Below are positions 2,510 through 58,708 of a DNA stretch of 64,000 nt, piece by piece. Each line of letters starts with the position of its first letter. Within the stretch, counting starts at the first letter, position 1. Origin of the DNA: Patescibacteria group bacterium. Its GTDB lineage: Bacteria; Patescibacteriota; Patescibacteriia; Magasanikbacterales; GWA2-37-8. The DNA lies in contig SCQK01000014.1 in the NCBI GenBank assembly GCA_004321885.1, positions 64,001 to 128,000 of the forward strand. The letters run 5' to 3'. Both the position numbers and the translations under genes were made by a program. The notes beneath the pieces are model-generated. The model was not told the origin of the DNA and searched no databases. It saw nothing but the letters and a program-made list of their open reading frames with translations.

Positions 2510-2610
2510 ACCGACAGTAGGGTATCACGTTTTTTTGCGCTTTTCAAGGGGTAAAATTTGTGATAGAATATGCCCTGTCCGCTGGATTACCAGCGACAGA
2601 TAATTTTTAC

Positions 2611-2650
2611 CCCCACCCAACCTCCCCCTTTTAAGGGGGGAGGGGAGGAG
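2611..2650. repeat. family-A palindromic repeat (CCTCCCCCTTTTAAGGGGGGAGG)
   Basis: Perfect inverted repeat just upstream of pilT. Consensus CCTCCCCTTwTAAGGGGAGG recurs at 15 or more sites. Confidence 0.7.
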
Positions 2651-4361: not shown

Positions 4362-7300
4362 ATGCGAAGAGCGAAAATAATATTTTTCATTATTATCTTC
4401 GCCGCGTTCAGCTCGGCCGCCTTTGGCGGTCGTGTTTTGTCTTTTGACACCAATATCGCTCATCCAAACATCGCGACATTGGCCGTAAAGCTTTACAATG
4501 AGAATTTTGACCCGGATTTAACCGAGGAACAGACGCGTTGGATAGAGCAGGGAGCTGTTGCCGAGGACACGCCCAACCGGTGGTACAACCATTTTTACGA
4601 CCCGGTCTACAATCGTGGCATCTGGTTTGGCAAACAACATTTATCAGCCAAAAATTGGGCTGTTAATCCCCGAGCTCAAACTGGTTTTGCCTTGGGCGAC
4701 AAGAGCTGGCAAAGAGCGCTTGATGATTTTAGAAATAGTGATGAGGAAAAGGCATACAGGGCCCTGGGGCATATTATTCACCTTATTTCAGATATGGCTG
4801 TGCCGGCGCATACCCGAGACGACATTCATCCGCTCGGCGATTCGTTTGAGCAATTTGTGAAAAAGAATTGGGCCAGCGCGACAAAGAATTTGCGCTATGG
4901 AATGATATCTGTATCTGATTTAGATTCAGCTTTTGATTCTGTGGCCAATTATTCAAACAATAATTTTTATAGTGATGATACGATTGAAAATAAAAAATAT
5001 CAGAATCCAGATTTGAATCACATTATACTAAAATATGTGGAAGTTGGAAATGGCATTTCTTATAAATTTTTAGTCAATTCAGTTGGTGGTCAAGAAAGTT
5101 TGCTTTGTAGAACTAATAGCAATAAGAATTGGTTAGACACTCTTGGGGATGACATTCTAAAAGAGTGCAAAGTTGGTGATGATCTCGTTCTCACCGACTA
5201 CTCCCGCCACCTGCTCCCAAAAGCCATCGGTTACAGCGCCGGAATTATTAAACTATTTTTTGACCAAGCCAAGAGTGATAAGGAAGTGGGTAATTTGCCC
5301 GGCAAAAGAACTAGTTTTTCCGGATACCTTGATCAATTTCTTGGTTTCGCTGTCTCGGGAGCGGAAAAATTATACAGCGTGATTAAGATAGCGTTAGGAA
5401 TAGAGCCGGCTTATTCCGAGGGAAGCGCGGAGATTGAGGAACAAGCGCCCTCCCTCCCGCCAGAGGCAGGCAAGCATCAAGGGGAGGGAACGACCACAAC
5501 CACACCAACCACGCCAACCACGACCAACGTCGCGCAGACCACGACCAAACCCAAACCCCCCGCCACCATAAAAAAAGCGGTCGGGAGAAAGACCGGGGCG
5601 TCTGGCGCGCCGGTCGCTGGCTCCATAGTCCCCGACTTAGTCGGGGCTGTGGAGCCCAATGCCAGCACCCTGGCTCCACAGCCTCCTGCGGGGGACAATG
5701 GAGCCAGCCAAGAAGGAACGACGACCACGCCTGTGTATTTTCCTCCATCGTCAAGAGACGGGGGAGCGTATCCGCCAAATACCCCTCCCCTAATAGGGGA
5801 GGGAGATGTTGTGCCTACCACCACCCCGACACCCACCACCACCCCGTCTTCTACAACTACCCCTTCGTCCACCACCACCCCAACCCCCTCCCCCACCACC
5901 ACTCCCACCAGCACTCCGGCTCTGCCACCGCCACCGCTCGTCATCAGCGAAATCGCCTGGGCCGGCACCTCGGCCGCCAGGTCCAACAACGAATGGCTGG
6001 AGCTTTACAACAACTCCACCTCGTCAATAGATTTCACCTCGGGCTGGAAAATTTTTGTTTCCGGCGCCCAGCTCAACATCTCCAATTTTGTTAATCCAGT
6101 CATTTTACCAAAAACATATTACCTGTTGGAACGCACCGACGATTTTACGGTCAAAGAAATTTCCGCGGACGCGATTTACACCGGCGCCCTAAACAATAAT
6201 GGCGCGAAAGTGGAACTCGTCAATCCAAGCGGAGAAACCATAGACACCGTGGACGGCTCCTCGGGCTGGTTCGCGGGTCAGGCCAGTCCCAGTTACGCTA
6301 GTATGGAAAGAAAAGACCTCACCGCCAGCGGTACGAGTCCCGGCAACTGGCAATCCAGCATTGGCGGGCGCGCCACTGGCACGAGCGATGAAATGCCGCC
6401 CAAGCCCATCATGGGCTCGCCCAAACGCCCCAATTTCGGCTACATTGTGCTTACTGGTACCCAAGCCCAAACCACCCGCACACTCACCACAGACAACAGT
6501 CCCTATCTTTTGTGGAGTTACACTATTCCAGCCGGCTTTACATTAAACATCAATCCCGGCGTGGTGATAAAAAGTTACACCCAAAGCGCGGTGATGATTG
6601 TAGATGGGACGCTGAATGTTGGCGGGGGAGACAATAAAGTCATCTTCACCTCGGGCAAAGACCAGTCTTTCACCAGTCCCGACCTCAACCTGATAGACAT
6701 CAATTATCTTTGGACAACTCCCGGGCCGGCTGAAAAAGATTGGCAGGGGCTGTGGTTCAAGCCCGGCTCCCAGGGCAACATCGCCAATACAGAAATCAGA
6801 TACGCGGGCAAAGAGTTTTACCCCACCGGAGGCCCGGCCATGTCCCAGGGCATTCGCGCCGAATCCGGGCTTTCCCTATCAAACTCCACCATCGCCAACT
6901 CCGGCTCCGCGCTTATCTTTCTCCAAAATGCTTCTTCCACCATTACTAACACCAACTTCACCGGCTCCGATCTGGCCATAGAAGCCAACAATTCCCGGCT
7001 CACAATCAACGGCGCGCACTTCACGGGCTTTGGCTCACAGGGCCCTTTGCAAATCAAAGACGCCTGGCCCGAATTTTCCAATCTCACCTACACCACCGGC
7101 ACTGTGCCTTATGCCCGTTTGTACATGGTAAAAACCAGCGCCCCGCAGACCACGGCCAAAAAAGAAATCAATTACCTCTTTGACAACATTGAAGTGGCGT
7201 CTTCCACCACCTTAAACATTGAACCCGGCGCCAACGTCAAAATGACCAACAGCTCCATACTCACGGTCAATGGCGTTCTCAATGCCAATGGCACGCCCAC

Positions 7301-7805
7301 CGACCCCGTCAGTATCGGTCAATTTACCCCGGCCATTCCCAATACTTTATGGGGTTCACTCTACTTCACGGGCAATACTTCCACCATCAAATACACCAAC
7401 ATCTCTGGCGGCGGGCACATACCATCGGGCAGTGGCGTATTCGGCGCCATCACGGCGCAAAATGCCGAAGTCATCATTGAAAACAGCGCCATAAAAAACA
7501 CGGAACAGCCGGGCAATGCCATACAATCCGCCAACGCAGTCATTAGAATAAAGAACAGCGAGATTTCCAATGACACCAAGACGCGCGAAGACCCGCCCGC
7601 GGGCCCGTCGCCTTACAATATCGGGGTCAGCATCGGCGGCGGCAGTCTTCACCTGGACAACACCCTGTTCAAAAATCTCAACATCGGCTTGCAGGGAACA
7701 TACATATCTGGTAGTTTGCCACAGGTGGAGCTGGTCAACATGAATACATCCACTGCGTATTTTCAGAATGTGGGGCGGGTGATGAATCCGTTGGTATGGT
7801 TTTAG
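4362..7805 (+). CDS. large secreted multidomain protein: zinc-dependent phospholipase C / S1-P1 nuclease-like N-domain, Thr/Pro-rich linker, lamin-tail domain (LTD), parallel beta-helix repeats
   Basis: Signal peptide MRRAKIIFFIIIFAAFSSAAFG. HFYDPVYNRG...GHIIHLISDMAVPAHTRDD matches the PLC zinc-ligand pattern. TTTTPTTPTTT and PTPTTTPSSTTTPSS form low-complexity linkers. PPLVISEIAWAGTS...EWLELYNNS...SGWKI carries LTD hallmarks. The C-terminal half is NxT/S-rich beta-helix repeats. 1147 aa. Confidence 0.8.
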   Translation: MRRAKIIFFIIIFAAFSSAAFGGRVLSFDTNIAHPNIATLAVKLYNENFDPDLTEEQTRWIEQGAVAEDTPNRWYNHFYDPVYNRGIWFGKQHLSAKNWAVNPRAQTGFALGDKSWQRALDDFRNSDEEKAYRALGHIIHLISDMAVPAHTRDDIHPLGDSFEQFVKKNWASATKNLRYGMISVSDLDSAFDSVANYSNNNFYSDDTIENKKYQNPDLNHIILKYVEVGNGISYKFLVNSVGGQESLLCRTNSNKNWLDTLGDDILKECKVGDDLVLTDYSRHLLPKAIGYSAGIIKLFFDQAKSDKEVGNLPGKRTSFSGYLDQFLGFAVSGAEKLYSVIKIALGIEPAYSEGSAEIEEQAPSLPPEAGKHQGEGTTTTTPTTPTTTNVAQTTTKPKPPATIKKAVGRKTGASGAPVAGSIVPDLVGAVEPNASTLAPQPPAGDNGASQEGTTTTPVYFPPSSRDGGAYPPNTPPLIGEGDVVPTTTPTPTTTPSSTTTPSSTTTPTPSPTTTPTSTPALPPPPLVISEIAWAGTSAARSNNEWLELYNNSTSSIDFTSGWKIFVSGAQLNISNFVNPVILPKTYYLLERTDDFTVKEISADAIYTGALNNNGAKVELVNPSGETIDTVDGSSGWFAGQASPSYASMERKDLTASGTSPGNWQSSIGGRATGTSDEMPPKPIMGSPKRPNFGYIVLTGTQAQTTRTLTTDNSPYLLWSYTIPAGFTLNINPGVVIKSYTQSAVMIVDGTLNVGGGDNKVIFTSGKDQSFTSPDLNLIDINYLWTTPGPAEKDWQGLWFKPGSQGNIANTEIRYAGKEFYPTGGPAMSQGIRAESGLSLSNSTIANSGSALIFLQNASSTITNTNFTGSDLAIEANNSRLTINGAHFTGFGSQGPLQIKDAWPEFSNLTYTTGTVPYARLYMVKTSAPQTTAKKEINYLFDNIEVASSTTLNIEPGANVKMTNSSILTVNGVLNANGTPTDPVSIGQFTPAIPNTLWGSLYFTGNTSTIKYTNISGGGHIPSGSGVFGAITAQNAEVIIENSAIKNTEQPGNAIQSANAVIRIKNSEISNDTKTREDPPAGPSPYNIGVSIGGGSLHLDNTLFKNLNIGLQGTYISGSLPQVELVNMNTSTAYFQNVGRVMNPLVWF
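5619..5656. repeat. family-C palindromic repeat (GGCTCCATAGTCCCCGACTTAGTCGGGGCTGTGGAGCC) inserted in-frame in CDS
   Basis: Encodes SIVPDLVGAVEP inside the 1147-aa protein. The same unit is in guaA (30514..30551), and the core CCCGACTTAGTCGGG is at 40690 and 50611. Confidence 0.7.
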
Positions 7806-9298
7806 ATAAAATTTTCAAAAAAATTCAGGCAGTGGCCCAAAAAAATAAGACCCCGTGCTATGTGGTGGGCGGTTTTGTGCGCGATATGCTGATGGACAAG
7901 GCGCGGGAAAAAGACGTGGATTTTGTGATTTTGGGAAGCGGGCTGGGGTTTGCCAAAAAATTTGACCAGGCCATGAAGCAAGAGGGGAGTTTAATTGAGT
8001 TTCCGGATTTTGACACGGCGCGGTATATTTTGACCCCTTCTAAATCCTCCCCTTATCAAGGGGAGGATAACGAGCAAATCGTGCTGGAGTTCGCGGGCGC
8101 GCGAGGGGAAGAATATGACGAGAAAAGCCGCAAGCCCAGGGTAAAGCCGGCCACGTTAAAACAAGATTTAGAGCGCCGCGATTTTACCATCAACGCGATG
8201 GCCATGAGTATTGACGACTACCCCTCCGGCCGTCCGCCACAGGGCGGACGGCCGCCTCCCCTTATAAAGGGGAGGCTGATAGACCCGTTCGGCGGGCAGG
8301 AAGATTTGAAAAATAAAATTCTGCGCACGCCGCTTGACCCGGACAAAATATTTTCCGAGGACCCTTTGCGCATGATGCGCGCCGCGCGCTTCGCGGGCCA
8401 GCTTGGTTTTGCCATAGACACTTTTGCTTTGCAGGCCATTTACCGCAACCGCGAGCGCCTGAAAATCGTTTCGGCCGAGCGCGTGCAAGAGGAGCTGTTA
8501 AAAATGCTTTCCACGCCCGAGCCATCTATTTGTCTGGCTCTGCTTTTTCAAACCCACCTGTTGGATTTGGTGTTGCCAGAGGTGGCCAAGCTGGACGGGG
8601 TGGAAGAAATTTACGGCCACCAGCACAAAAACAATTTATCACACACCTTTAAAGTGGTGGACAATATCGCCGAGCGCTCGCCCAAAGTCATGTTGCGCTT
8701 TGCCGGCCTGCTGCACGACATCGGCAAGGCGTCCACTAAAAAATTTATTCCGCGTCAGGGCTGGACTTTTTACCAGCACGAGCACATGGGCAAAAAAATG
8801 GTTTATCAAATCGGCAAGCGCCTGCGCTTGTCCACGGACCACACGGATTATTTGGCCAAAATGGTGCGCTGGCACCAGCAGCCGATAAGCCTGATGGACA
8901 AGGGCATCACGGATTCGGCGGTGCGTCGCCTGATTGTGAATTTGGGTGATGAGTTGGAAGATTTGTTGATACTTGGCCGGAGCGACATTACCACGGGCAA
9001 TCCGTTGAAAAAAGAAAAACGCCTGGGCAATTACGACCGACTGGAAAAGCGCATTGCCGAGGTTTTGGAAAAAGATAAATTGCGCGCCTTTCAGTCGCCG
9101 GTGCGCGGGGAAGAAATCATGAAAGAGTGCGGCTTGAAAGCCGGGCCGACAGTGGGAAAAATAAAAGACGCGATAGAGGAGGCCATTCTTGACGGAATCA
9201 TACCAAATGAGTATGATAAAGCGAGGGAGTACTTGTTTGAAATTAAGAATAAGTATCTGGAAAAAGCCCAGGATTGGGAAAGAGTGAAAAATATATGA
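7796..9298 (+). CDS. cca: CCA-adding tRNA nucleotidyltransferase / poly(A) polymerase family with HD domain
   Basis: GGFVRDMLM...DVDFV is the class II nucleotidyltransferase head. The HD motif LLHDIGK is present. 500 aa. Two in-frame palindromic insertions lie at 8044..8068 and 8226..8276. Confidence 0.85.
   Translation: MVLDKIFKKIQAVAQKNKTPCYVVGGFVRDMLMDKAREKDVDFVILGSGLGFAKKFDQAMKQEGSLIEFPDFDTARYILTPSKSSPYQGEDNEQIVLEFAGARGEEYDEKSRKPRVKPATLKQDLERRDFTINAMAMSIDDYPSGRPPQGGRPPPLIKGRLIDPFGGQEDLKNKILRTPLDPDKIFSEDPLRMMRAARFAGQLGFAIDTFALQAIYRNRERLKIVSAERVQEELLKMLSTPEPSICLALLFQTHLLDLVLPEVAKLDGVEEIYGHQHKNNLSHTFKVVDNIAERSPKVMLRFAGLLHDIGKASTKKFIPRQGWTFYQHEHMGKKMVYQIGKRLRLSTDHTDYLAKMVRWHQQPISLMDKGITDSAVRRLIVNLGDELEDLLILGRSDITTGNPLKKEKRLGNYDRLEKRIAEVLEKDKLRAFQSPVRGEEIMKECGLKAGPTVGKIKDAIEEAILDGIIPNEYDKAREYLFEIKNKYLEKAQDWERVKNI
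8226..8276. repeat. composite palindromic insertion (GGCCGTCCGCC..GGCGGACGGCC plus family-A CCTCCCCTTATAAAGGGGAGG) in-frame within cca
   Basis: Encodes PSGRPPQGGRPPPLIKGRL. Two adjacent perfect inverted repeats. Confidence 0.7.
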
Positions 9299-11022
9299 AA
9301 AGAAAATATTGGATTATCGGGGGAATAGTCGTGTTGGCCATCGGCGGCCTGGTTTATCGCGGCTACAAAAAAAGCCATCCGCCGGCGCAATACGAAACAG
9401 TGAAAATTCAGCGCGGGGATTTGAAACAGACCGTGGAGGTAACCGGCAAGGTGGAGGCAAACGATGATTTGTCTTTGCGTTTTGAGGTGCCTGGCACAGT
9501 GGGCAATGTGGCGGTAAAAGAAGGGCAGAAGGTTAAAAAAGGGCAGACACTGGCGTCTTTGCGTCTGGCCGACCTCAACGCGGCCGTGGCCCAGGCCGCG
9601 GCCAATTTGAACCAAAAATTAGCCGGCGCCACGCAGTCGGAACGGGATTATTACAAGGCCGTGATGGAACAGGCCCAGGCCGACTGGGATAAGGCCAAAG
9701 TGGACACGGCCGCCAGTATTGCCACAGCCGAGTCCGCGTACATCACCGCCAAAAATAATCTTAAGCTGGCCGAGGGCGGGGAAAACAGCCTCATTGTAAA
9801 TAACGCCTACGACAACGCCATCATCACGGCTCAAACTTCCCTTTCGGTTTTAGACGACGGCCTCACCCAGGCCGACAATATCTTGGGCATAGACAACACT
9901 CTGGCCAACGACAGTTTTGAAAGTTATTTATCTTTGCTTGACCTAAACAAATTAAATTTAGCAAAATCCTCTTATGCCACTGCCAAAGAAGCCAAGGCCG
10001 CGGCGCGCGCCGCGATTTCGGCTCTGGCCGTAAAAGTTTCCAGTCATAGCGATGTGGACAGCGCGCTCGTCAAAGCCGCCGATGCCGCGACCAGGATGAA
10101 TACCTTGCTTTCGCAGGTCTCGGAAGTTTTATACAACACCGCGCCCATGGGTTCGCTGACACAAGCCTCTTTGGACGCCAAAAAAACTACTATTGAAACC
10201 ACGCGCGCCAGCGTCAATGCCCAGTATAAAAAAATAGTGGAGGCCCAGCAGGCTATCGTGGACGCCAAGAGCAGTTATTCAAACTACCAGGTGGCCTATG
10301 ATAAAGCGGCCAAAGATTTAGCTGATGCCAAAGCCGCCGCCGAGAGCGCCCTTAAAATAAAAGAAGCGCTGTACAACCAGGCGTACGCGAATTGGCAGAA
10401 TAAAACTAGCCCCACCCGCGCCGTGGACGTGGCCGCCTATCGCGCCGCTCTGGCCCAGGCCGCGGCCAACAGAAACAAGGCTATCATCGCCGCGCCCATA
10501 GACGGCCAGGTGGCCAAGATAAACAAAAAAGTCGGCGAGCTGGTAACCTCGGCCGACGTGATGATAAATTTGATATCCCCGCATTTTGTGATAAAGGTGG
10601 ATGTGCCCGAGACCGATGTTTCCAAGCTGACCGTGGGCGACCAGGCGGCGATAACCTTGGACGCCTGGGGCAGTGACACAAAATTTTCCGGCGGGGTAAC
10701 GGCAATAGAATCCAATTCCACCGAGATTCAGGATGTGGTTTATTACAAGGTTAAAATTCGCATCATGCCGGCCAGCGCGCCGGTTAAAGCCGGCATGACC
10801 GCGAATATTACCGTGGACACGGATGCGCGCGCCGGAGTTTTGTTTGTGCCCCTACGCTCGGTGCGCACCGATGTGGAAGACAAGCGCTTTGTGAAGGTGT
10901 TAGAGAACGGCGAAGAGAAAGACGTGTACGTGAGATTGGGTTTGAAAGCGAATGAGGGGAAGGTGGAAATTTTAGAGGGGCTGACCGAGGGGCAGGAAGT
11001 GATTCTCTCCATAAAAAAATAA
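9295..11022 (+). CDS. HlyD-family efflux transporter periplasmic adaptor subunit (MacA-like)
   Basis: N-terminal TM anchor, a long Ala-rich coiled coil and a C-terminal beta-barrel. It sits upstream of the ABC ATPase and two FtsX-type permeases. Confidence 0.8.
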   Translation: MKRKYWIIGGIVVLAIGGLVYRGYKKSHPPAQYETVKIQRGDLKQTVEVTGKVEANDDLSLRFEVPGTVGNVAVKEGQKVKKGQTLASLRLADLNAAVAQAAANLNQKLAGATQSERDYYKAVMEQAQADWDKAKVDTAASIATAESAYITAKNNLKLAEGGENSLIVNNAYDNAIITAQTSLSVLDDGLTQADNILGIDNTLANDSFESYLSLLDLNKLNLAKSSYATAKEAKAAARAAISALAVKVSSHSDVDSALVKAADAATRMNTLLSQVSEVLYNTAPMGSLTQASLDAKKTTIETTRASVNAQYKKIVEAQQAIVDAKSSYSNYQVAYDKAAKDLADAKAAAESALKIKEALYNQAYANWQNKTSPTRAVDVAAYRAALAQAAANRNKAIIAAPIDGQVAKINKKVGELVTSADVMINLISPHFVIKVDVPETDVSKLTVGDQAAITLDAWGSDTKFSGGVTAIESNSTEIQDVVYYKVKIRIMPASAPVKAGMTANITVDTDARAGVLFVPLRSVRTDVEDKRFVKVLENGEEKDVYVRLGLKANEGKVEILEGLTEGQEVILSIKK

Positions 11023-11023
11023 A

Positions 11024-11074
11024 CCCCACCCTGCCACCACACCAAAGATTTTGGTGTGGTGGCAGGGGGAGGGG
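11024..11074. repeat. family-B palindromic repeat (CCACCACACCAAAGATTTTGGTGTGGTGG)
   Basis: Perfect inverted repeat between the adaptor and the ATPase. Relatives are at 26630/26728, 41395 and 58424. Confidence 0.7.
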
Positions 11075-11081
11075 TATTTTT

Positions 11082-20299: not shown

Positions 20300-21631
20300 T
20301 CAAATTTTTATTTCTTTGATTTTATTTTGTAAAGTTTGTTTTGATTTTACTCGCACCCGCACAAATTCCGGCGTATATCCCGCGAAGTAGCCGGATTTTT
20401 TTTGTTCAAACAGTACTGGGCGGGTTTTGCCGGTGAATTTGGCCGCGAATTTTTTGGCCTCGGCTTTGGAAATTTTGAGCAGTTTTTTTACGCGTTCGGT
20501 TTTGATTTTGTCCTGCACTTGGTTTGGCATTTTGGCCGCGGCAGTGCCAGGGCGCGGAGAAAAAGGGAAAACGTGTATTTTGGCAAAGCCCCCGCCAAAG
20601 GCGGGTCCGTCTTGGGCGGACATTTTTTTTACAAACGCGCAGGTCTCGGTGAATTCTTTTTCGGTCTCGCCCGGGAAGCCGACGATAATGTCGGTGGTAA
20701 AAGAAAACAGGGGATTGGCCTGGCGCAGTTTTTGAACAATTCCAAGATATTGTTTCGCGTTATATCCGCGCCGCATCCGTTTGAGCATTGTGTCCGAGCC
20801 CGATTGCAAGGACAAATGCCAATGCGGCATCAATCTGTTTTGTCCCCCCTTTTTAAGGGGGGAATAAAAGGGGGGTAAGAATAATTTTATTAATTTTTCC
20901 GAAATCAGCCGCGGGTCCAGCGAACCGAGCCGGATGCGCTCTATTTTTGTTTCTCGTAAAATTTTTTTCAGCAGTTCGGCCAAGTCTCCCCCACTGCCAG
21001 AGGGGGGGACGAAGGGGGGGTGGGAGCTGTCTTTGTATTGGCAAATATTTACTCCGGTCAGTACCGCTTCTTTATAGCCGTCTTTTTCCGCTTCTTTGAT
21101 TTTTTTTATCACCGCCTCGGATGGCACACTTCGCGTTCGGCCGCGGAAAGATGGAATAATACAATAGGCGCAGTTAAAATTACAGCCGGTTTGGATTTTG
21201 ATGAGAGTGCGTGTTCTATCATTGCGTAGCCGAGCGGTCGGATGTGTTCGTAGCGCCTTATGCCGCCGCAGCGGCATGGCCGAGGCCTCGCGGCCGAGGG
21301 AAGCGAGAACACATCCGACCGCTCCTCTGCGAGCTTCGCAATGGCTCACAACTTCCTCATTCCCTCTCGCCACAAAATCAATCTCGGGCAAATCCTTGTT
21401 TTCCAGACAGCCAACCGCGATTACGTACGCCCCGCGCCGTTTGGCCCGCCGAATCATCTCGCGCGTGGTCTGACTGGCGTCCACGGTCACTCCGCAGGCG
21501 CGCACCACGGCTACGTCTTCGTGCGCGCCAAAAAGCACGACAGAAAAACCTCGCTGTACGAGGTCTTTTTTCAGTTCTTCTGTCTCGGCTTGATTCAATT
21601 TGCACCCCAGGGTGTGGAATGAAATTTTCAC
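20300..21631 (-). CDS. radical-SAM tRNA methylthiotransferase (MiaB/MtaB family) with TRAM domain
   Basis: CNFNCAYCIIP is the radical-SAM CxxxCxxC box. The MTTase N-domain and C-terminal TRAM are present. Three in-frame palindromic insertions lie near 20846-20880, 20990-21030 and 21200-21340. Confidence 0.85.
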   Translation of the reverse strand: MKISFHTLGCKLNQAETEELKKDLVQRGFSVVLFGAHEDVAVVRACGVTVDASQTTREMIRRAKRRGAYVIAVGCLENKDLPEIDFVARGNEEVVSHCEARRGAVGCVLASLGREASAMPLRRHKALRTHPTARLRNDRTRTLIKIQTGCNFNCAYCIIPSFRGRTRSVPSEAVIKKIKEAEKDGYKEAVLTGVNICQYKDSSHPPFVPPSGSGGDLAELLKKILRETKIERIRLGSLDPRLISEKLIKLFLPPFYSPLKKGGQNRLMPHWHLSLQSGSDTMLKRMRRGYNAKQYLGIVQKLRQANPLFSFTTDIIVGFPGETEKEFTETCAFVKKMSAQDGPAFGGGFAKIHVFPFSPRPGTAAAKMPNQVQDKIKTERVKKLLKISKAEAKKFAAKFTGKTRPVLFEQKKSGYFAGYTPEFVRVRVKSKQTLQNKIKEIKI

Positions 21632-21632
21632 G

Positions 21633-22277
21633 CTATTCCATTAAAATGTAAGACCGAAAGCCGCCTCCATAACTCGATTCCGCGAATTGTTTTACAAAGT
21701 CATTCATCACCCTTCTGGTTGGTTCGTCTTTGATGTTTTCGTGCTGTTTGATCAGGTTGTTCAGCACGAATTTGTCCCTAAAGTCGCCTTTGCTGTTTAG
21801 GTTGGTATTGCCTATGTTGTAATGTTCAAAGAAAAATTGGTGGTCCATCTGGTCTATTATTCTTGCCACTTTCGTCTCGTCCGAATCCCCGTGTTCAAAT
21901 TCGTTGAACAGTTCCTTGAGTTCGCGTCCATCCGGTTCTTCCAGGTAGCCGGCCAAAAGCTCCATCGCTTTTTCTCCAATTTTGTTTTTATATTCGGTAA
22001 GTTCTGGGTAGCGGCGGTGCAAGGGCGCAGAGATATCACCTCCGAAAAGTTCACCCAAATCATGCACCAAGAGCATGGACATTATTTTTTCGCCGTCAAT
22101 TTTTCCGCCCTCCCTCTTTATTTTTTTCAGTAAAAAATAGGCGATAATGCAGGCGCCATAATGATGCTCGGCCAGGGTTTCAACCTCGTGCAGGCGGATG
22201 CCGCCCAAAAGATAGCCGGTGAGCGGCTGTTCTTTGGTGAGTTGTAAGATGGAAAAAAGTTTGACGAGATTTTGCAT
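21633..22277 (-). CDS. HD-domain phosphohydrolase (YfbR-like 5'-deoxynucleotidase family)
   Basis: H...HD...D motifs (LAEHHYGA, LVHDLGELFGGD). The internal ATG at 22275-22277 lies immediately after the tRNA-Lys 3' remnant. The upstream part of the 270-aa track ORF crosses tRNA-like DNA. Confidence 0.75.
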   Translation of the reverse strand: MQNLVKLFSILQLTKEQPLTGYLLGGIRLHEVETLAEHHYGACIIAYFLLKKIKREGGKIDGEKIMSMLLVHDLGELFGGDISAPLHRRYPELTEYKNKIGEKAMELLAGYLEEPDGRELKELFNEFEHGDSDETKVARIIDQMDHQFFFEHYNIGNTNLNSKGDFRDKFVLNNLIKQHENIKDEPTRRVMNDFVKQFAESSYGGGFRSYILME

Positions 22278-29972: not shown

Positions 29973-31802
29973 TTACTCCCACTCAATAGTTCCGGGTGGT
30001 TTGTTGGTGAGGTCGTAGAAGATGAAGTCCACGGCGTTTAGAGCGTGGATTTTTTTGATGATTTTTTTCAGAGTGGGCGAGGGTATGACGCCAAACGAGA
30101 CGGTCATCGCTTCTTCTGATTCCACGGGTCGCAGGACAATTGATTCGCCGTGCTTGTGCCCAAACGGCACGAGCACCGTGGGCATTTGCCAGATTTTTTG
30201 GCATTGCTTGTCGGTCAAAATGGCGCTGTCGGCGATGTCATCTATTTTTCGCAAAAGGTCCAGCCGTTTTTTGGTAAGATACGCTTTTTTCAGCGTGGCT
30301 TTTGGCAATGATTTTTTGTCGCCGGAAACAAGCAGTAGAACGCGGTTGATGTCTTTGTGGGCGTTGGTGATTTTAGGAGAAAGGGATTGATAATACCCCC
30401 ACCCGGCCTCCCCCTTATAAAGGGGGAGGGGACCTGTGATAACGGCGGGGTGGGCGTAGGAGCGCTCGTCGCCTTGCACGCCCACGGATTTGATGGGGAG
30501 ACGCCAAATTGTTGGCTCCACAGCCCCGACTAAGTCGGGGACTATGGAGCCAGCGTCGTTTGATCCTTCCGAGCACAGACAGCGAATGGCCAGGCCCGGG
30601 CCCGGAAAGGGATGGCGGTTTATCAATTTTTGCGGCAGACCGAGCTTAAGGCCGATGGCGCGCACTTCGTCTTTGTACAAATCCTTAATCGGCTCTATGA
30701 TTTTTCCTTCGGCGATCATTTGTTTTATCCGCGGTACGCGATTGTGATGCGTTTTTATGACGTCGGCGTTTTTGGTGCCGCCCGATTCAATAGTGTCGGG
30801 ATAAATGGTGCCTTGGCCGACCAACCATTTGTCTCCGGTCAATTTTTTTCTACCAGACCCGCCTTTGGCGGGTTCGGCCATTACTTTGTCCACAATATCC
30901 AAAAACAAATCGCCGATGATTTTTCTTTTTTGTTCCGGATCAGACACGCCTTTGAGCGCGGATAAAAATTCTTTTTCGGCGTTATACACCCGCAAGTTGT
31001 CTCCCAGTCGCTTCAGAGCCGCTATGATTTTTTTTGTCTCATCCAACCGCATCAGGCCGCTGTCAATGTGCAAGCCGAAAACCCTTTTTTCGCCAAGCAC
31101 TTTTCGCAATAGGGCGAAACAAACCGTGGAATCAACGCCGCCGGAGACGAGCAAGAAAACATTTTTACCGCCCGCTTCCTTTTTTATATTTTTTTCAATT
31201 TGATCCAGCATTGTCTCTGTCGTCCAGTTTTTTTCCGCCCCGCAAATATTTAAAATAAAATTGGCCAGAATTTTTTTTCCTTCTTTCGTGTGATTTACTT
31301 CCGGATGAAACTGAAAGCCGAAGAACTTTTTTGATAAATTTTGCATGGCCGCCACCGAACGGTTGCCGGTTGAAGCGATTGGCGTAAAACCGAACGGCAG
31401 TTTGTCCACGTGATCGCCGTGGCTCATCCAGACAACGGTATTTTTACTTACGCCCGAAAAAATCGGCGAGGCGCTGACGGATAATTTCGCCAAACCGTAT
31501 TCACGCGCCTTGCCCGATTCAACGCGCCCGCCAAAAAAATCTGCCATCAACTGATGCCCGTAGCACAGACCCAAAATCGGCGCGCTGAGCGTAAAAATTT
31601 TTTTATCAAAAGGCAAACGCGCGTCGCGCACCAGCGAACGCGGACCGCCGGAAAGGATGATTCCACACGCGTTTTTCAATCGTTCGGCTTTGACGTTATT
31701 CGGGTAAATACGTGAAATAACGCCCAGTTCGCGCACGCGACGGGCGATGAGATGGGTGTACTGGGAACCGAAATCAAGGATGGCGATTTCACTTTTTGGC
31801 AT
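29973..31802 (-). CDS. guaA: GMP synthase (glutamine-hydrolysing) GuaA with repeat insertions and internal C-terminal duplication
   Basis: GATase MPKSEIAILDFGSQYT...GLCYGHQL. ATP-PPase SGGVDS. C-terminus KPPGTIEWE. ATG at 31800-31802; the 734-aa track ORF over-extends across the guaB start. Inserts at 30395..30425 and 30514..30551. Confidence 0.9.
   Translation of the reverse strand: MPKSEIAILDFGSQYTHLIARRVRELGVISRIYPNNVKAERLKNACGIILSGGPRSLVRDARLPFDKKIFTLSAPILGLCYGHQLMADFFGGRVESGKAREYGLAKLSVSASPIFSGVSKNTVVWMSHGDHVDKLPFGFTPIASTGNRSVAAMQNLSKKFFGFQFHPEVNHTKEGKKILANFILNICGAEKNWTTETMLDQIEKNIKKEAGGKNVFLLVSGGVDSTVCFALLRKVLGEKRVFGLHIDSGLMRLDETKKIIAALKRLGDNLRVYNAEKEFLSALKGVSDPEQKRKIIGDLFLDIVDKVMAEPAKGGSGRKKLTGDKWLVGQGTIYPDTIESGGTKNADVIKTHHNRVPRIKQMIAEGKIIEPIKDLYKDEVRAIGLKLGLPQKLINRHPFPGPGLAIRCLCSEGSNDAGSIVPDLVGAVEPTIWRLPIKSVGVQGDERSYAHPAVITGPLPLYKGEAGWGYYQSLSPKITNAHKDINRVLLLVSGDKKSLPKATLKKAYLTKKRLDLLRKIDDIADSAILTDKQCQKIWQMPTVLVPFGHKHGESIVLRPVESEEAMTVSFGVIPSPTLKKIIKKIHALNAVDFIFYDLTNKPPGTIEWE
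30514..30551. repeat. family-C palindromic repeat in-frame within guaA (encodes SIVPDLVGAVEP)
   Basis: GGCTCCACAGCCCCGACTAAGTCGGGGACTATGGAGCC is the reverse complement of the copy at 5619..5656. Confidence 0.7.
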
Positions 31803-34726: not shown

Positions 34727-35452
34727 GTGAAAATATTTATTCGCGACGACGCGGACCAAAGCGTGTATAACGAAATTTTTAAGCTGGGCGAATATCGCGC
34801 CGCGGACAAAGCCATAAAAAACGCGCGTGAACCCGTTATAGACGTCGGCGCGCACGCCGGCTTTTTTAGTTTGTATTGCCGCGCGCTCAATCCCCAGGTG
34901 AAAATTTTCGCCATTGAACCCGAGCCGGAAAATTTTAAGCAGTTACAAAAACACATCGCGGGCAACAATATTAAGGGCGTGGAGCCGGTGCCAGCCGCTT
35001 TGGCCGGCGAGACCGGGGAGAGGGAGTTGATAATATCCAAAGACAATCATAATCATCGGCTCCGATTACCCCCTCCTCGCCTCCCCCTTATAAAGGGGGA
35101 GGACAATTTCCCTCCCCTTGATAAGGGGAGGGCGAGGGAGGGGTACTGGGTCGCGGCTTTTTCCTTGGGTGATTTTTGCCGGCGTTATAAAATCAAAAAC
35201 GTCGCTTTGCTCAAAATGGACATAGAAGGAGGAGAGGAAGAAACGTTCAAAAGTGCGAGCGCGTCTGATTTGGCTATGGTAAAAAACGTAATTTTGGAGT
35301 ATCATGGTAATAACTTCGCGCCAATAGAACAAAAATTGCGCGAAAACGGTTTTGGAGTACAGAAATTTCCGTCCAAGTTTGATAATAAAATGGGTTTTTT
35401 GTTTGCACGCAATAAAAGGTATGTCTCACCAAGCATGGATAGTGGCGGTTGA
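34727..35452 (+). CDS. FkbM-family methyltransferase (alternative GTG start) carrying tandem in-frame palindromic insertions
   Basis: IDVGAHAGFFS and KMDIEGGE motifs. Insert 35069..35143 encodes PPPRLPLIKGEDNFPPLDKGRAREG. Confidence 0.65.
   Translation: MKIFIRDDADQSVYNEIFKLGEYRAADKAIKNAREPVIDVGAHAGFFSLYCRALNPQVKIFAIEPEPENFKQLQKHIAGNNIKGVEPVPAALAGETGERELIISKDNHNHRLRLPPPRLPLIKGEDNFPPLDKGRAREGYWVAAFSLGDFCRRYKIKNVALLKMDIEGGEEETFKSASASDLAMVKNVILEYHGNNFAPIEQKLRENGFGVQKFPSKFDNKMGFLFARNKRYVSPSMDSGG
35069..35143. repeat. two tandem family-A palindromic repeats in-frame within the FkbM MTase gene
   Basis: CCTCCCCCTTATAAAGGGGGAGG followed by CCCTCCCCTTGATAAGGGGAGGG. Confidence 0.7.
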
Positions 35453-36746: not shown

Positions 36747-36813
36747 TCGTCAATAGACCCTCTCCTATTAGGAGAGGGATACAGGGTGGGGTTTGTATTA
36801 AATAATTTTTTGA

Positions 36814-40679: not shown

Positions 40680-40712
40680 AGTCATTCCCCCGACTTAGTC
40701 GGGGGAATCCAG
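40680..40712. repeat. family-D element with family-C core (GTCATTCCCCCGACTTAGTCGGGGGAATCCAG)
   Basis: Shows the modular relationship between families C and D. A mirror copy is at 50601..50633. Confidence 0.65.
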
Positions 40713-41370: not shown

Positions 41371-41440
41371 CCTCTCCCCTTTACAAGGGGGAGGCTTGTC
41401 ACCACACCAAAAATTTTGGTGTGGTGACAGAGAGGGGGTA
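41371..41440. repeat. composite family-A plus family-B palindromic repeats
   Basis: CCTCTCCCCTTTACAAGGGGGAGG followed by CTTGTCACCACACCAAAAATTTTGGTGTGGTGACAGAG. Confidence 0.7.
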
Positions 41441-55093: not shown

Positions 55094-55098
55094 TGATA

Positions 55099-55144
55099 CC
55101 CCTCCCTTTAACCCTCCCCTTAATAAGGGGAGGGAGGGGTGGGG
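55099..55144. repeat. family-A palindromic repeats (tandem), intergenic
   Basis: CCCCTCCCTTTAACCCTCCCCTTAATAAGGGGAGGGAGGGGTGGGG. Confidence 0.65.
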
Positions 55145-55182
55145 TTTGCTTTTTTAGGTTCGCGAGTATATTATAAAAATGT

Positions 55183-58153: not shown

Positions 58154-58708
58154 TTAGAGCCTGTCCCGAACTTGTTTCGGGAGGGAGGATAGAGGAGGGA
58201 GTATGTGTATTTTTCTCTTGTTCCCTCCCGCGTATTCAATTCTGACGGTTATTATTTTCGGCCCTTGGCCGATATTTTTCAAAAGCTCTTTTATTTTCTC
58301 CGGCCACTCAATCGCGCAAATCGTATCCGGCCTGCCCAAATAATCCAGCGCGCCGATTTCCACAAGTTCGTGCTCATTTTTTAGCCGGTAGGTATCTATA
58401 TGGACGAATTTTTGTGTCCCCCTGCCCCCACACCAAAATTTTTGGTGTGGGGGCCTGCCCGAGGGGGACTTTGAGGGGGGTGGGAGCAAGTACACATTCA
58501 TCAACGCGAACGTCGGACTGGTAATTTTTTCTTTGACGCCCAAGCCGGCGGCAATGCCTTTCACCAATGCAGTTTTGCCCGCGCCCAGTTCGCCGTAAAG
58601 CAATAAAATATCGCCGCCGCGCAATTTTCGCGCCAAAGCCGCGCCAAACGCAAATGTTTCTTTTTCGTTTTTCGTGATAATTTTTTGATTGTTTTGACGG
58701 GTTGACAT
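58154..58708 (-). CDS. tsaE: tRNA threonylcarbamoyladenosine biosynthesis protein TsaE
   Basis: P-loop GELGAGKT and SPTF motif. ATG at 58706-58708. Contains a ~35-aa in-frame repeat-encoded insert (58415..58485). Confidence 0.8.
   Translation of the reverse strand: MSTRQNNQKIITKNEKETFAFGAALARKLRGGDILLLYGELGAGKTALVKGIAAGLGVKEKITSPTFALMNVYLLPPPSKSPSGRPPHQKFWCGGRGTQKFVHIDTYRLKNEHELVEIGALDYLGRPDTICAIEWPEKIKELLKNIGQGPKIITVRIEYAGGNKRKIHILPPLSSLPKQVRDRL
58424..58454. repeat. family-B palindromic repeat in-frame within tsaE (GCCCCCACACCAAAATTTTTGGTGTGGGGGC)
   Basis: Encodes PPHQKFWCGG within TsaE. Perfect 14-bp arms. Confidence 0.7.

What the first reader, a model, noticed from the sequence alone, without database searches (positions are those of the whole stretch)
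30395..30551. guaA carries an internal degenerate tandem duplication of its C-terminal dimerisation segment, bracketed by two different palindromic elements
After GPGLAIR the protein reads [family-C insert SIVPDLVGAVEP] - IWRLPIKSVGVQGDERSYAHPAVITG - [family-A insert PLPLYKGEAGWG] - YYQSLSPKITNAHKDINRVLLLVSGDKKSLPKATL. The canonical tail then follows: LDLLRKIDDIADSAIL...IWQMPTVLVPFGHKHGESIVLRPVES...FIFYDLTNKPPGTIEWE. The inserted copy has the near-perfect conserved SVGVxGDxRxY motif but a degenerate PPATIEWE end. The downstream native copy has a degenerate motif (FGHKHGESIV) but a perfect KPPGTIEWE end. This looks like repeat-mediated recombination or patch duplication inside an essential gene.
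Basis: partly seen in the sequence, partly recalled or inferred. Interest (0 to 1): 0.5.

Follow-up and report, generated by a model that had tools for sequence, protein, structure and literature searches.

The report
Human-type GuaA with in-frame palindromic inserts
The "duplicated tail" of this candidate-phyla-radiation GMP synthase is the ancient two-subdomain (D1/D2) form known from human GMP synthase. The two palindromes are short dispersed repeats that sit in frame in two surface loops, so no recent rearrangement of an essential gene has occurred.

Summary
guaA (29973-31802, minus strand, 609 aa) reads as quoted and contains two palindromes that recur elsewhere in the window.

The "internal duplication" is not recent and not repeat-mediated. 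All 118 orthologues aligned carry both segments. The best solved-structure match is human GMP synthase (2VXO), collinear through its D1 and D2 subdomains. A profile of the extra segment matches human D1 and also the single dimerisation domain of bacterial enzymes. D1 is therefore an ancient paralogue of that domain. D1 keeps the SVGVQGDxRSY arginine motif and D2 keeps KPPGTIEWE. The two copies share no detectable protein or DNA similarity with each other.

The palindromes do not bracket the duplicate. Family C lies in the linker before D1, and family A lies inside D1 between strand 2 and its helix. Each is a 42-nt stretch translated in frame, at a length-variable loop where model confidence dips.

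Family A fits the known intrastrand triplex motif class (BoxC/PIT/TMECO). Related elements sit in the same guaA loop in scattered lineages, and in other housekeeping genes of this window. This behaviour resembles Rickettsia palindromic elements.

The D1-type enzyme is described in reviews as absent from bacteria.

The parts
29973..31802 (-). guaA, glutamine-hydrolysing GMP synthase, 609 aa plus stop. Identical to an NCBI 'Patescibacteria group bacterium' protein.
   Evidence: ORF and translation. Pfam GATase, NAD_synthase-like ATP-PPase and GMP_synt_C. 100% hit P0001.
31248..31781 (-). Class I glutamine amidotransferase domain (residues 8-185).
   Evidence: Pfam PF00117, E 2e-44. C80, H166 and E168 are invariant in 118 orthologues.
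30567..31214 (-). ATP pyrophosphatase core (about residues 197-412), including the P-loop SGGVDS (31128-31145) and the flexible lid loop.
   Evidence: Alignment to 2VXO, 5TW7 and 3TQI. Invariant S220 G221 G222 D224 S225. Coordinates.
30843..30875 (-). Third in-frame palindrome inside guaA. The hairpin ACCCGCC-AAA-GGCGGGT lies at 30857-30873. The stretch encodes EPAKGGSGRKK, about +8 aa relative to the orthologue consensus.
   Evidence: Pattern hits at 30857, 20590 and 2478 against 0.02 expected. Consensus spacing. pLDDT dip to 62 at residues 311-320. DNA fold -8.6 kcal/mol.
30513..30555 (-). Family C palindromic element. It is a 42-nt block identical to the copy at 5615-5656 and is translated as AGSIVPDLVGAVEP (residues 417-430) in the linker between the ATP-PPase core and D1.
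   Evidence: DNA hairpin -18.6 kcal/mol, z -7.5. The same peptide occurs in ORF 4362-7805. An intergenic copy occurs in L037. pLDDT 69 at residues 421-430.
30291..30509 (-). D1 subdomain (residues 432-504), with strand-strand-helix-strand order. It is an ancient paralogue of the dimerisation domain and carries SVGVQGDERSY (30456-30488), whose R447 aligns with human R524.
   Evidence: Collinear with human GMPS 514-603. The D1 profile also hits bacterial dimerisation domains at E 6e-11 to 3e-5. Secondary structure E432-434, E449-455, H465-481, E485-493. Present in all 118 orthologues.
30393..30434 (-). Family A element, a class II intrastrand triplex motif on the coding strand: CCTCCCCCTT-TAT-AAGGGGGAGG, spacer CCG, third block GGTGGGGGTA. 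It is translated as GPLPLYKGEAGWGY (residues 457-470) between strand 2 and the helix of D1.
   Evidence: 10/10 triads. This loop is 32 aa against a mode of 25 aa in orthologues. pLDDT 70 at residues 461-470.
30195..30290 (-). Inter-subdomain helix (residues 505-536, LTKKRLDLLRKIDDIA...). It corresponds to the helix that precedes the dimerisation domain in single-domain enzymes.
   Evidence: H511-530 in the model. Weak second stretch of the D1 profile on 5TW7 414-436 and 3UOW 446-468.
29976..30194 (-). D2 subdomain (residues 537-609), the canonical C-terminal dimerisation/XMP-binding domain ending in KPPGTIEWE (29976-30002).
   Evidence: Pfam GMP_synt_C covers 536-608, E 9e-18. Aligns with human 611-697 and bacterial C-termini.
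5615..5656 (+). Second window copy of family C. It lies inside the 1147-aa lamin-tail-domain protein (4362-7805, plus strand) and is read in the same element orientation and frame (AGSIVPDLVGAVEP).
35066..35145 (+). Family A doublet: arm, hairpin, spacer, hairpin, arm. It lies in frame inside an FkbM-type methyltransferase gene (34727-35452) and encodes LPPPRLPLIKGEDNFPPLDKGRAREGYW.
   Evidence: DNA fold -29.8 kcal/mol, z -5.2.
2606..2643 (+). Family A copy (arm TACCCCCACCC plus hairpin). It lies just upstream of the likely start (about 2657) of a PilT-like ATPase, outside its conserved domain.

Best explanation
guaA encodes an intact GMP synthase of the long, human-like type. After the ATP-pyrophosphatase core come two subdomains, D1 and D2. 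Both descend from one ancient duplication of the dimerisation domain.

By homology with human GMPS, D1 plays the part of the partner subunit. It supplies the arginine of SVGVQGDxRSY to the XMP site within the same chain. D2 supplies the C-terminal KPPGTIEWE loop. This division of labour explains why each copy keeps only one of the two motifs. This step is inferred, not shown.

Separately, this genome is colonised by several families of short G+C-rich palindromic repeats. Three copies persist inside guaA because they landed in frame in tolerant surface loops, where each is translated as a loop segment of about 11-14 residues:
- Family C, a plain 42-nt hairpin, in the linker before D1.
- Family A, a pyrimidine/purine hairpin followed by a mirror-image G/T block, between strand 2 and the helix of D1. 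This layout matches the BoxC/PIT/TMECO intrastrand triplex kind.
- A 17-nt hairpin in the ATP-PPase core.

They behave like Rickettsia palindromic elements. Insertions elsewhere in the gene would be lost to selection. As a result, different lineages show different repeats at the same two loops.
For: Architecture:
- The best PDB sequence hit is human 2VXO. Its second stretch aligns query 433-609 with human 514-697.
- Foldseek ranks 2VXO first at E 1.5e-56.
- The AlphaFold model has pLDDT 89.2 and strand-strand-helix-strand order in both D1 and D2.
- All 118 orthologues contain both segments, with R447 and K601-E609 invariant.
- The D1 profile hits human D1 at E 1.9e-12 and single bacterial, archaeal and Plasmodium dimerisation domains at E 6e-11 to 3e-5.
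- In human GMPS, D1 and D2 superpose at 2.2 A, D1 R524 contacts XMP, and the enzyme is a monomer (PMC10526850).

Repeats:
- Copies recur in the window above chance.
- The same DNA is found in frame in unrelated genes, upstream of a gene, and intergenic in the window and elsewhere.
- The guaA family A core is 23/23 identical to the copy in the FkbM gene.
- The loop holding family A is 32 aa against a modal 25 aa. The linker holding family C is 28 aa against 21-23 aa in the nearest clade.
- Orthologues P0014, P0041, P0058, P0055 and P0076 carry family-A-type hairpins with a mirror block at the same loop, with different stems and loops. P0003 is empty at that site.
- These carriers are scattered on a neighbour-joining tree, and their sisters lack the insert.
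- All three guaA inserts coincide with local pLDDT dips.

Triplex-motif class:
- 56 of 75 pyrimidine/purine hairpins in the DNA held have a third block with at least L-1 allowed triads, and the spacer is 3 nt in 46 of them.
- The third blocks are specific to their own stems (0 of 5000 permutations reach the observed match).
- The layout matches the motif of Holder et al. 2015 (PMC4666352).
Against: - No empty site from a close relative is available. The nearest orthologue is only 72% identical, so the insertion events and element ends are inferred from protein alignments.
- The net gain at each of the two loops is only 7 aa, against 14 aa of repeat-derived sequence. Either native residues were replaced or deleted, or the ends are misjudged.
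- The conserved Trp of the D1 helix is encoded by the family A third block, in exact register with orthologues. This points to trimming after insertion, or to a less simple history.
- No target-site duplication or transposase was identified, so mobility is not shown.
- Family C has only two copies in the window and one hit elsewhere.
- Monomeric state, the role of R447 and triplex formation are all inferred by homology. None was tested here.
Confidence: 0.85

Rival explanations
1. One reading: a recent patch duplication of the C-terminal dimerisation segment inside guaA, produced by recombination between the flanking palindromic repeats.
For: Two dimerisation-like segments with complementary motif decay exist. 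Repeats lie nearby.
Against: - The extra segment is in all 118 orthologues and in human GMPS.
- The copies show no similarity to each other by BLASTP, hhalign or blastn.
- The two palindromes belong to different families, so they cannot recombine with each other.
- They flank only 26 aa, not the roughly 120-aa extra segment.
Confidence: 0.02
2. Assembly artefact: the region was mis-joined or collapsed across short repeats.
For: The source is a metagenome-assembled genome, and the protein is known from a single contig.
Against: - The reading frame is intact and all catalytic motifs are present.
- The model is confident.
- The repeats are 42 nt, shorter than usual read lengths.
- The same architecture, and analogous inserts at the same loops, occur in independent assemblies from four sources.
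Confidence: 0.02
3. The palindromes are not selfish insertions. They are functional elements kept at these positions. Possible roles are DNA or RNA structures that pause transcription or translation at subdomain boundaries, or triplex-forming sites that promote local variation.
For: - Elements recur at the same two loops in several lineages, in the same orientation for six family-A-type guaA copies.
- The stem and third block covary.
- The native YAHPA codons are complementary to the third block (inverted repeat I2, 87%).
- TMECO motifs are linked to local genome instability in E. coli (PMC4666352).
Against: - Most orthologues lack any insert at the family A loop: 48 of 118 have the 25-aa minimum form.
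- Sister taxa differ in presence.
- The same elements occur in unrelated genes and intergenic DNA in both orientations.
- Purine-motif triplexes are reported not to form in RNA (PMC4666352).
- Two of the five carrier orthologues examined (P0058, P0055) lack the arm-like YAHPA codons.
Confidence: 0.1

Closest known systems
Human-type (D1/D2) GMP synthetase, PDB 2VXO (Welin et al. 2013, as summarised in PMC10526850 and PMC9312489)
   Same: - An extra subdomain lies between the ATP-PPase core and the C-terminal dimerisation domain.
- D1 keeps the VGVQGDxRSY arginine motif and D2 keeps KPPGTxEWE.
- The alignment is collinear over both subdomains.
- It is the best sequence and fold match.
   Different: - The host is a bacterium of the candidate phyla radiation, whereas the reviews describe D1 as absent from bacterial, archaeal and protozoal enzymes.
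- The segment before D1 is short: 28 residues here between C410 and S439, against a longer helical stretch in human GMPS and in more distant orthologues.
- Overall identity is about 36%.
- The oligomeric state was not tested.
Rickettsia palindromic elements (Ogata et al. 2000 and 2002, as summarised in PMC10969869)
   Same: They are dispersed palindromic repeats found in frame inside unrelated housekeeping genes. They are translated as extra loop peptides at positions compatible with the fold, and also occur outside genes.
   Different: - The phylum is different and no sequence relation is known.
- The elements here are much shorter, about 42 nt against roughly 100-150 bp.
- One family has triplex-motif geometry.
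- Repeated occupation of the same loop in different lineages is seen here.
BoxC / PIT / TMECO intrastrand triplex motifs (Hoyne and Maher 2000; Holder et al. 2015, PMC4666352)
   Same: - The layout is a C-rich stem, a loop, a G-rich stem, a spacer of about 3 nt, then a mirror-image G-rich third block.
- They are multi-copy.
- They also occur as inverted doublets.
- They are spread across phyla.
   Different: - The E. coli analysis in the paper concerns copies near or between genes. Here most window copies lie in frame inside genes.
- The stem sequence differs from the TMECO pattern: CCTCCCCCTT against CCCTCNCCC.
- Triplex formation was not tested for these copies.
REP/REPIN elements mobilised by RAYT transposases (from general knowledge, not tested)
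   Same: Short hairpins with a conserved flanking arm, occurring as singlets and as inverted doublets.
   Different: No RAYT gene was sought or found. REPs are extragenic by definition and usually species-specific, whereas the family A core is identical across distant phyla.

Membership tests
Glutamine-hydrolysing GMP synthase (GuaA) | Class I amidotransferase domain with a Cys-His-Glu triad. | tested here: met
   PF00117, E 2e-44. C80, H166 and E168 are invariant.
Glutamine-hydrolysing GMP synthase (GuaA) | ATP-PPase P-loop SGGxDS and the C-terminal KPPxTIEWE signature. | tested here: met
   SGGVDS at residues 220-225 and KPPGTIEWE at 601-609. PF00958, E 9e-18.
D1-containing (human-type) GMP synthetase | An extra subdomain inserted between the ATP-PPase core and the C-terminal dimerisation domain, homologous to human D1. 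| tested here: met
   Query 433-609 is collinear with human 514-697. The D1 profile hits human 514-603 at E 1.9e-12.
D1-containing (human-type) GMP synthetase | D1 has the same fold as D2 and mimics the dimer interface. | tested here: inconclusive
   The model shows the same strand-strand-helix-strand order in both, and the D1 profile matches canonical dimerisation domains. The two subdomains were not superposed, and the interface was not inspected.
D1-containing (human-type) GMP synthetase | Monomer in solution, with the D1 arginine contacting XMP in the same chain. | not testable with these tools
   R447 aligns with human R524. No biochemistry is available.
Recent tandem or patch duplication | Detectable DNA or protein similarity between the two copies, and absence from relatives. 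| tested here: not met
   No BLASTP hit. hhalign probability 0.5%. Only chance blastn words. Present in all 118 orthologues.
Class II intrastrand triplex motif (BoxC/PIT/TM; ITxF criteria in PMC4666352) | Three consecutive blocks: pyrimidine stem, purine stem and third strand. Block length 6-15 nt, loops 1-6 nt, at most one mismatch, with triads G.G-C, A.A-T or T.A-T. | tested here: met
   guaA copy: 10-nt blocks, loops of 3 and 3 nt, 10/10 triads. Family-wide covariation.
Class II intrastrand triplex motif (BoxC/PIT/TM; ITxF criteria in PMC4666352) | Exact TMECO pattern CCCTCNCCC N3-6 GGGNGAGGG N3 GGGNGAGGG. | tested here: not met
   The window copies have CCTCCCCCTT or CCCTCCCCTT stems. The guaA copy in L030 is close but has a 5-nt second loop.
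Class II intrastrand triplex motif (BoxC/PIT/TM; ITxF criteria in PMC4666352) | Formation of a triplex in single-stranded DNA. | not testable with these tools
   The folding tools model Watson-Crick pairs only. The hairpin part is predicted at -11.5 kcal/mol.
Rickettsia palindromic elements | Sequence membership in one of the ten RPE families (about 100-150 bp, Rickettsia). | not tested
   No RPE sequences were available for comparison. The length (42 nt) and the host differ, so only the behaviour is compared.
MITE | Terminal inverted repeats plus a target-site duplication and a cognate transposase. | tested here: inconclusive
   The elements are palindromic. No direct repeat is evident at the ends of the two family C copies. 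No transposase was searched for.

The most novel reading that the evidence does not exclude
Two linked points that I did not find in the literature I could search.

(1) The D1/D2 'monomeric' GMP synthetase, described in reviews as eukaryote-only, is the standard form in a large group of candidate-phyla-radiation bacteria. It also appears in MAGs labelled archaeon and Oligoflexia. The duplication would then predate eukaryotes or have been exchanged with them.

(2) Triplex-motif (BoxC/PIT-type) repeats and other short palindromes in these reduced genomes are routinely translated inside housekeeping enzymes. They repeatedly occupy the same permissive loops of guaA in independent lineages. This would be a second, phylogenetically remote case of the Rickettsia-type phenomenon, using a different class of repeat.
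Probability: 0.45. Interest if true: 0.55.

Novelty: new variant of a known kind. Interest (0 to 1): 0.4.

Why it matters
For annotation: the odd-looking tail of this guaA is a normal, functional architecture. It should not be flagged as rearranged or as a pseudogene.

For enzymology: bacterial examples of the D1/D2 enzyme would give simple systems to study the pseudo-dimer. They would also constrain when the duplication arose.

For genome biology: candidate-phyla-radiation genomes appear to tolerate short structured repeats inside essential coding sequence. This affects gene calling, protein-family alignments and length statistics. It also offers natural insertion scans that mark permissive loops. 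If the triplex motif forms in vivo, these genes contain built-in sites of replication or recombination stress.

Tried and rejected
- Direct comparison of the two segments by BLASTP, hhalign and blastn found nothing. Homology had to be shown through the canonical domain instead.
- Rfam: no family reaches threshold on either palindrome. Only generic hairpin and miRNA-precursor matches appeared, far below their cut-offs.
- The first metagenome scan with the exact 23-nt family C core found nothing. A degenerate 38-nt pattern found one intergenic copy.
- The genome scan for family A did not recover the window's own genome, so the rest of the 159-kb contig could not be surveyed.
- I considered that the native YAHPA codons act as a pseudo-arm that guides insertion (I2). 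I set this aside because two of the five carrier orthologues examined (P0058, P0055) have non-matching codons there.
- Fold energy is not informative for family A (z -1.3), because shuffled C/G runs also pair.
- The taxonomy of D1-type proteins is only sketched. Two of the ten cluster representatives looked up carried names.
- Literature searches for in-frame palindromes or GMP synthase in this phylum returned nothing relevant. The library is incomplete, so this is weak evidence of novelty.
Full report
**What is at the coordinates**

The region lies inside one long ORF on the minus strand, 29973-31802. It encodes a 609-aa protein that begins MPKSEIAILDFG.

Pfam finds a class I amidotransferase domain, an ATP-pyrophosphatase region and the GMP synthase C-terminal domain. 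An identical protein is on record as a GMP synthase of a 'Patescibacteria group bacterium', on a 159-kb contig. The nearest relatives are labelled Magasanikbacteria. IMP dehydrogenase lies divergently upstream, as it does in related contigs.

**The two palindromes are real**

- CCTCCCCCTT-ATA-AAGGGGGAGG lies at 30407-30429.
- An imperfect 15-nt-arm palindrome lies at 30513-30552.
- The first core recurs at 35080 (identical) and at 2621. The second recurs at 5627. Fewer than 0.02 such matches are expected by chance.
- The two family C copies share a 42-nt identical block.

**The 'duplication'**

All 118 orthologues that I aligned are 569-661 aa long (the full hit list of 120 runs to 792 aa). 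All contain both segments:
- LPIKSVGVQGDERSY...INRVL, followed by a helix LTKxRLDLLRKID.
- IWQxPVVL...PPGTIEWE.

The best solved-structure match by sequence is human GMP synthetase 2VXO. Its second aligned stretch runs collinearly from query 433-609 to human 514-697, which covers the human D1 and D2 subdomains. An AlphaFold model built on the orthologue alignment is confident (pLDDT 89.2, pTM 0.89). It shows strand-strand-helix-strand order twice, at 432-493 and at 542-597. Foldseek ranks 2VXO first.

The two segments of this protein are not detectably similar to each other:
- BLASTP finds no alignment.
- Profile-profile comparison gives 0.5% probability.
- blastn finds only chance words.

A profile of the first segment behaves differently. 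It matches human D1 at E 1.9e-12 over positions 2-91. It also matches the single dimerisation domain of Neisseria, E. coli, Thermus, Plasmodium and archaeal enzymes over the whole strand-strand-helix-strand core, at E 6e-11 to 3e-5.

D1 is therefore a true but ancient paralogue of the dimerisation domain.

[quoted passage not shown] In human GMPS, D1 and D2 superpose at 2.2 A and mimic the dimer, D1 R524 contacts XMP in the same chain, and the enzyme is a monomer (PMC10526850, PMC9312489). Here R447 aligns with R524 and is invariant, as is K601-E609.

The recent, repeat-mediated origin is refuted. An old duplication followed by division of labour is supported.

**Position of the palindromes relative to the subdomains**

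Family C encodes residues 417-430, in the linker before D1 strand 1. Family A encodes residues 457-470, between D1 strand 2 and its helix. They flank only the 26-aa strand-turn-strand piece, not the extra subdomain. Being of different families, they could not have recombined with each other.

**What the palindromes are**

Both sit at the two most length-variable places of the orthologue alignment.
- The loop between R447 and N480 is 25 aa in 48 of 118 sequences and 32 aa here.
- The linker is 21-23 aa in the nearest clade and 28 aa here.
- All three low-confidence dips of the model outside the known flexible lid loop and the arginine turn (residues 441-450) coincide with palindromes: 311-320, 421-430 and 461-470.
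- The dip at 311-320 revealed a third in-frame hairpin, ACCCGCC-AAA-GGCGGGT, which encodes part of EPAKGGSGRKK. Similar hairpins occur at 20590 and 2478.

The same DNA occurs in other contexts.
- The second family C copy lies inside a 1147-aa lamin-tail-domain protein. It is read in the same orientation and frame, giving the same AGSIVPDLVGAVEP.
- A third family C copy, in a groundwater metagenome contig, is intergenic, directly after a stop codon.
- Family A copies lie as an inverted doublet inside an FkbM-type methyltransferase domain, and upstream of a PilT-like gene.
- A scan for pyrimidine/purine hairpins found eleven in the window. These include two in the head domain of a CCA-adding enzyme, one in a MiaB-like radical SAM enzyme and two in intergenic DNA.

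This pattern is that of dispersed repeats that survive in coding sequence only where they are in frame and tolerated. That is the behaviour described for Rickettsia palindromic elements (PMC10969869).

**Recurrent occupation of the same loop**

I fetched the DNA of seven orthologous genes.
- P0014, P0041, P0058, P0055 and P0076 each have, at the same loop after RSYAHPA, a C-rich/G-rich hairpin followed by a G-rich block. The stems and loops differ between them.
- P0003 has none.
- P0002, the nearest relative, has only a decayed pyrimidine-rich stretch.
- On a neighbour-joining tree built without the variable loops, carriers are scattered and their sisters lack the insert.
- The linker likewise holds unrelated palindromes in different lineages.
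- The guaA family A core is 23/23 identical to the copy in the FkbM gene of the same genome.

This favours insertion from a local pool, or conversion by it, over inheritance from a common ancestor.

**Family A is a triplex-type motif**

In every well-preserved copy, the purine arm of the hairpin is followed, after about 3 nt, by a block that is its mirror image, with A answered by A or T. For the guaA copy the coding strand reads CCTCCCCCTT-TAT-AAGGGGGAGG-CCG-GGTGGGGGTA, which gives 10 of 10 allowed triads.

Over all DNA held, 56 of 75 such hairpins have a third block with at most one mismatch, and the spacer is 3 nt in 46 of them. Across 14 different stem cores, the third blocks fit their own stems far better than swapped ones (0.97 against 0.67, with 0 of 5000 permutations reaching the observed value). 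The observed fraction is inflated because it was computed on the selected set. The permutation shows specificity only.

This is the layout of the intrastrand triplex motifs known as BoxC, PIT or TMECO. Those motifs were shown to fold as a triplex in vitro and were linked to local genome instability in E. coli (PMC4666352). The genome scan also found the exact 23-nt core, with the same flanking arm, in distant phyla.

I did not test triplex formation. A simple outer Watson-Crick arm is an alternative reading for copies that have both arms.

**Caveats**

- The net gain at each of the two loops is 7 aa, although 14 aa are repeat-derived.
- The conserved Trp at the start of the D1 helix is encoded by the third block, in exact register with orthologues. 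This implies replacement or later trimming of native sequence.
- No close empty site, target duplication or transposase is available.
- The six family-A-type guaA copies share one orientation, but other genes in the window do not follow this.

**A side result**

Both reviews state that D1 is absent from bacterial, archaeal and protozoal enzymes. Here it is universal in the 118 orthologues. The D1 profile finds 269 clusters at 50% identity with E up to 1e-10. Two of the ten cluster representatives looked up carried names, and they come from MAGs labelled archaeon and Oligoflexia. I found no paper in the searchable library on this, or on in-frame palindromes in this phylum.

**Verdict**

The gene is an intact human-type GMP synthase that carries three short dispersed palindromes in tolerant loops. 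Interest is moderate. It rests on the bacterial occurrence of the D1/D2 form and on the Rickettsia-like, recurrent, in-frame occupation of loops by triplex-type repeats.

Noticed in passing
window 30843-30875 (-): A third in-frame palindrome inside guaA, ACCCGCC-AAA-GGCGGGT. It encodes part of EPAKGGSGRKK, about 8 aa more than the orthologue consensus, at a pLDDT dip. Similar hairpins occur at 20590 and 2478.
   Followed up: partly
window 8045-8080 and 8255-8275 (gene 7715-9298, +): Two pyrimidine/purine hairpins lie in frame inside the head domain of a CCA-adding / poly(A) polymerase family enzyme. The domain match is 157 aa long against a 126-position profile.
   Followed up: partly
window 20843-20880 (gene 20300-21640, -): A triplex-type element (TCCCCCCTT-TTT-AAGGGGGGA ... 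AGGGGGGTA, 9/9 triads) lies inside the radical SAM domain of a MiaB-like enzyme.
   Followed up: partly
window 35066-35145 (gene 34727-35452, +): An inverted doublet of family A (arm, hairpin, spacer, hairpin, arm) is translated inside an FkbM-type methyltransferase domain. The layout resembles REPIN-like or 'palindromic TMECO' doublets.
   Followed up: partly
window 5615-5656 and 5783-5803 (gene 4362-7805, +): The 1147-aa lamin-tail-domain protein carries a family C copy, giving the same peptide as in guaA, and a further CCCTCCCC hairpin. Both lie in a Thr/Pro-rich low-complexity region.
   Followed up: partly
window 36758-36795 and 55095-55150: Intergenic triplex-type elements. The one at 55112 has both a 5' pyrimidine arm and a 3' G/T block (10/10 triads on both strands).
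   Followed up: partly
window 30444-30458 versus 30394-30408: The native codons for Y-A-H-P-A (TACGCCCACCCCGCC) are 87% complementary to the third block of the family A element. The element could therefore also close a longer Watson-Crick hairpin. Two of the five carrier orthologues examined lack this complementarity.
   Followed up: partly
L001-L029 (genome scan): The exact 23-nt family A core, with the same flanking arm (ACCCCCTCC or GGAGGGGGT), occurs in Marinomonas, Cellvibrionaceae, Aliivibrio, Acidobacteriota, Spirochaetota, a Methanoregulaceae archaeon, Saccharibacteria and Magasanikbacteria. This is an unusually wide spread for a short repeat.
   Followed up: partly
P0145, P0256: D1-type GMP synthases also occur in MAGs labelled 'archaeon' (577 aa) and 'Oligoflexia bacterium' (702 aa). 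The distribution beyond the candidate phyla radiation is unresolved.
   Followed up: partly
window 11015-11081, 41397-41429, 58424-58454: Another palindrome family shares CACCACACCAAAA / TTTTGGTGTGGTG. Its position relative to genes was not examined.
   Followed up: no
window 40685-40707: The hairpin TTCCCCCGACTTAGTCGGGGGAA resembles the inner stem of family C (CCCCGAC-TAA-GTCGGGG). It lies inside a 130-aa ORF with no Pfam match.
   Followed up: no
L032 4001-5863 and L030 1001-2986 (orthologous guaA linkers): Other lineages carry unrelated long palindromes in the same linker. Examples are VIPSVTRNP...SVMPRDD in P0058 (fold -53.8 kcal/mol) and HPERSEGSL in P0014. Several repeat families use this site.
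   Followed up: partly
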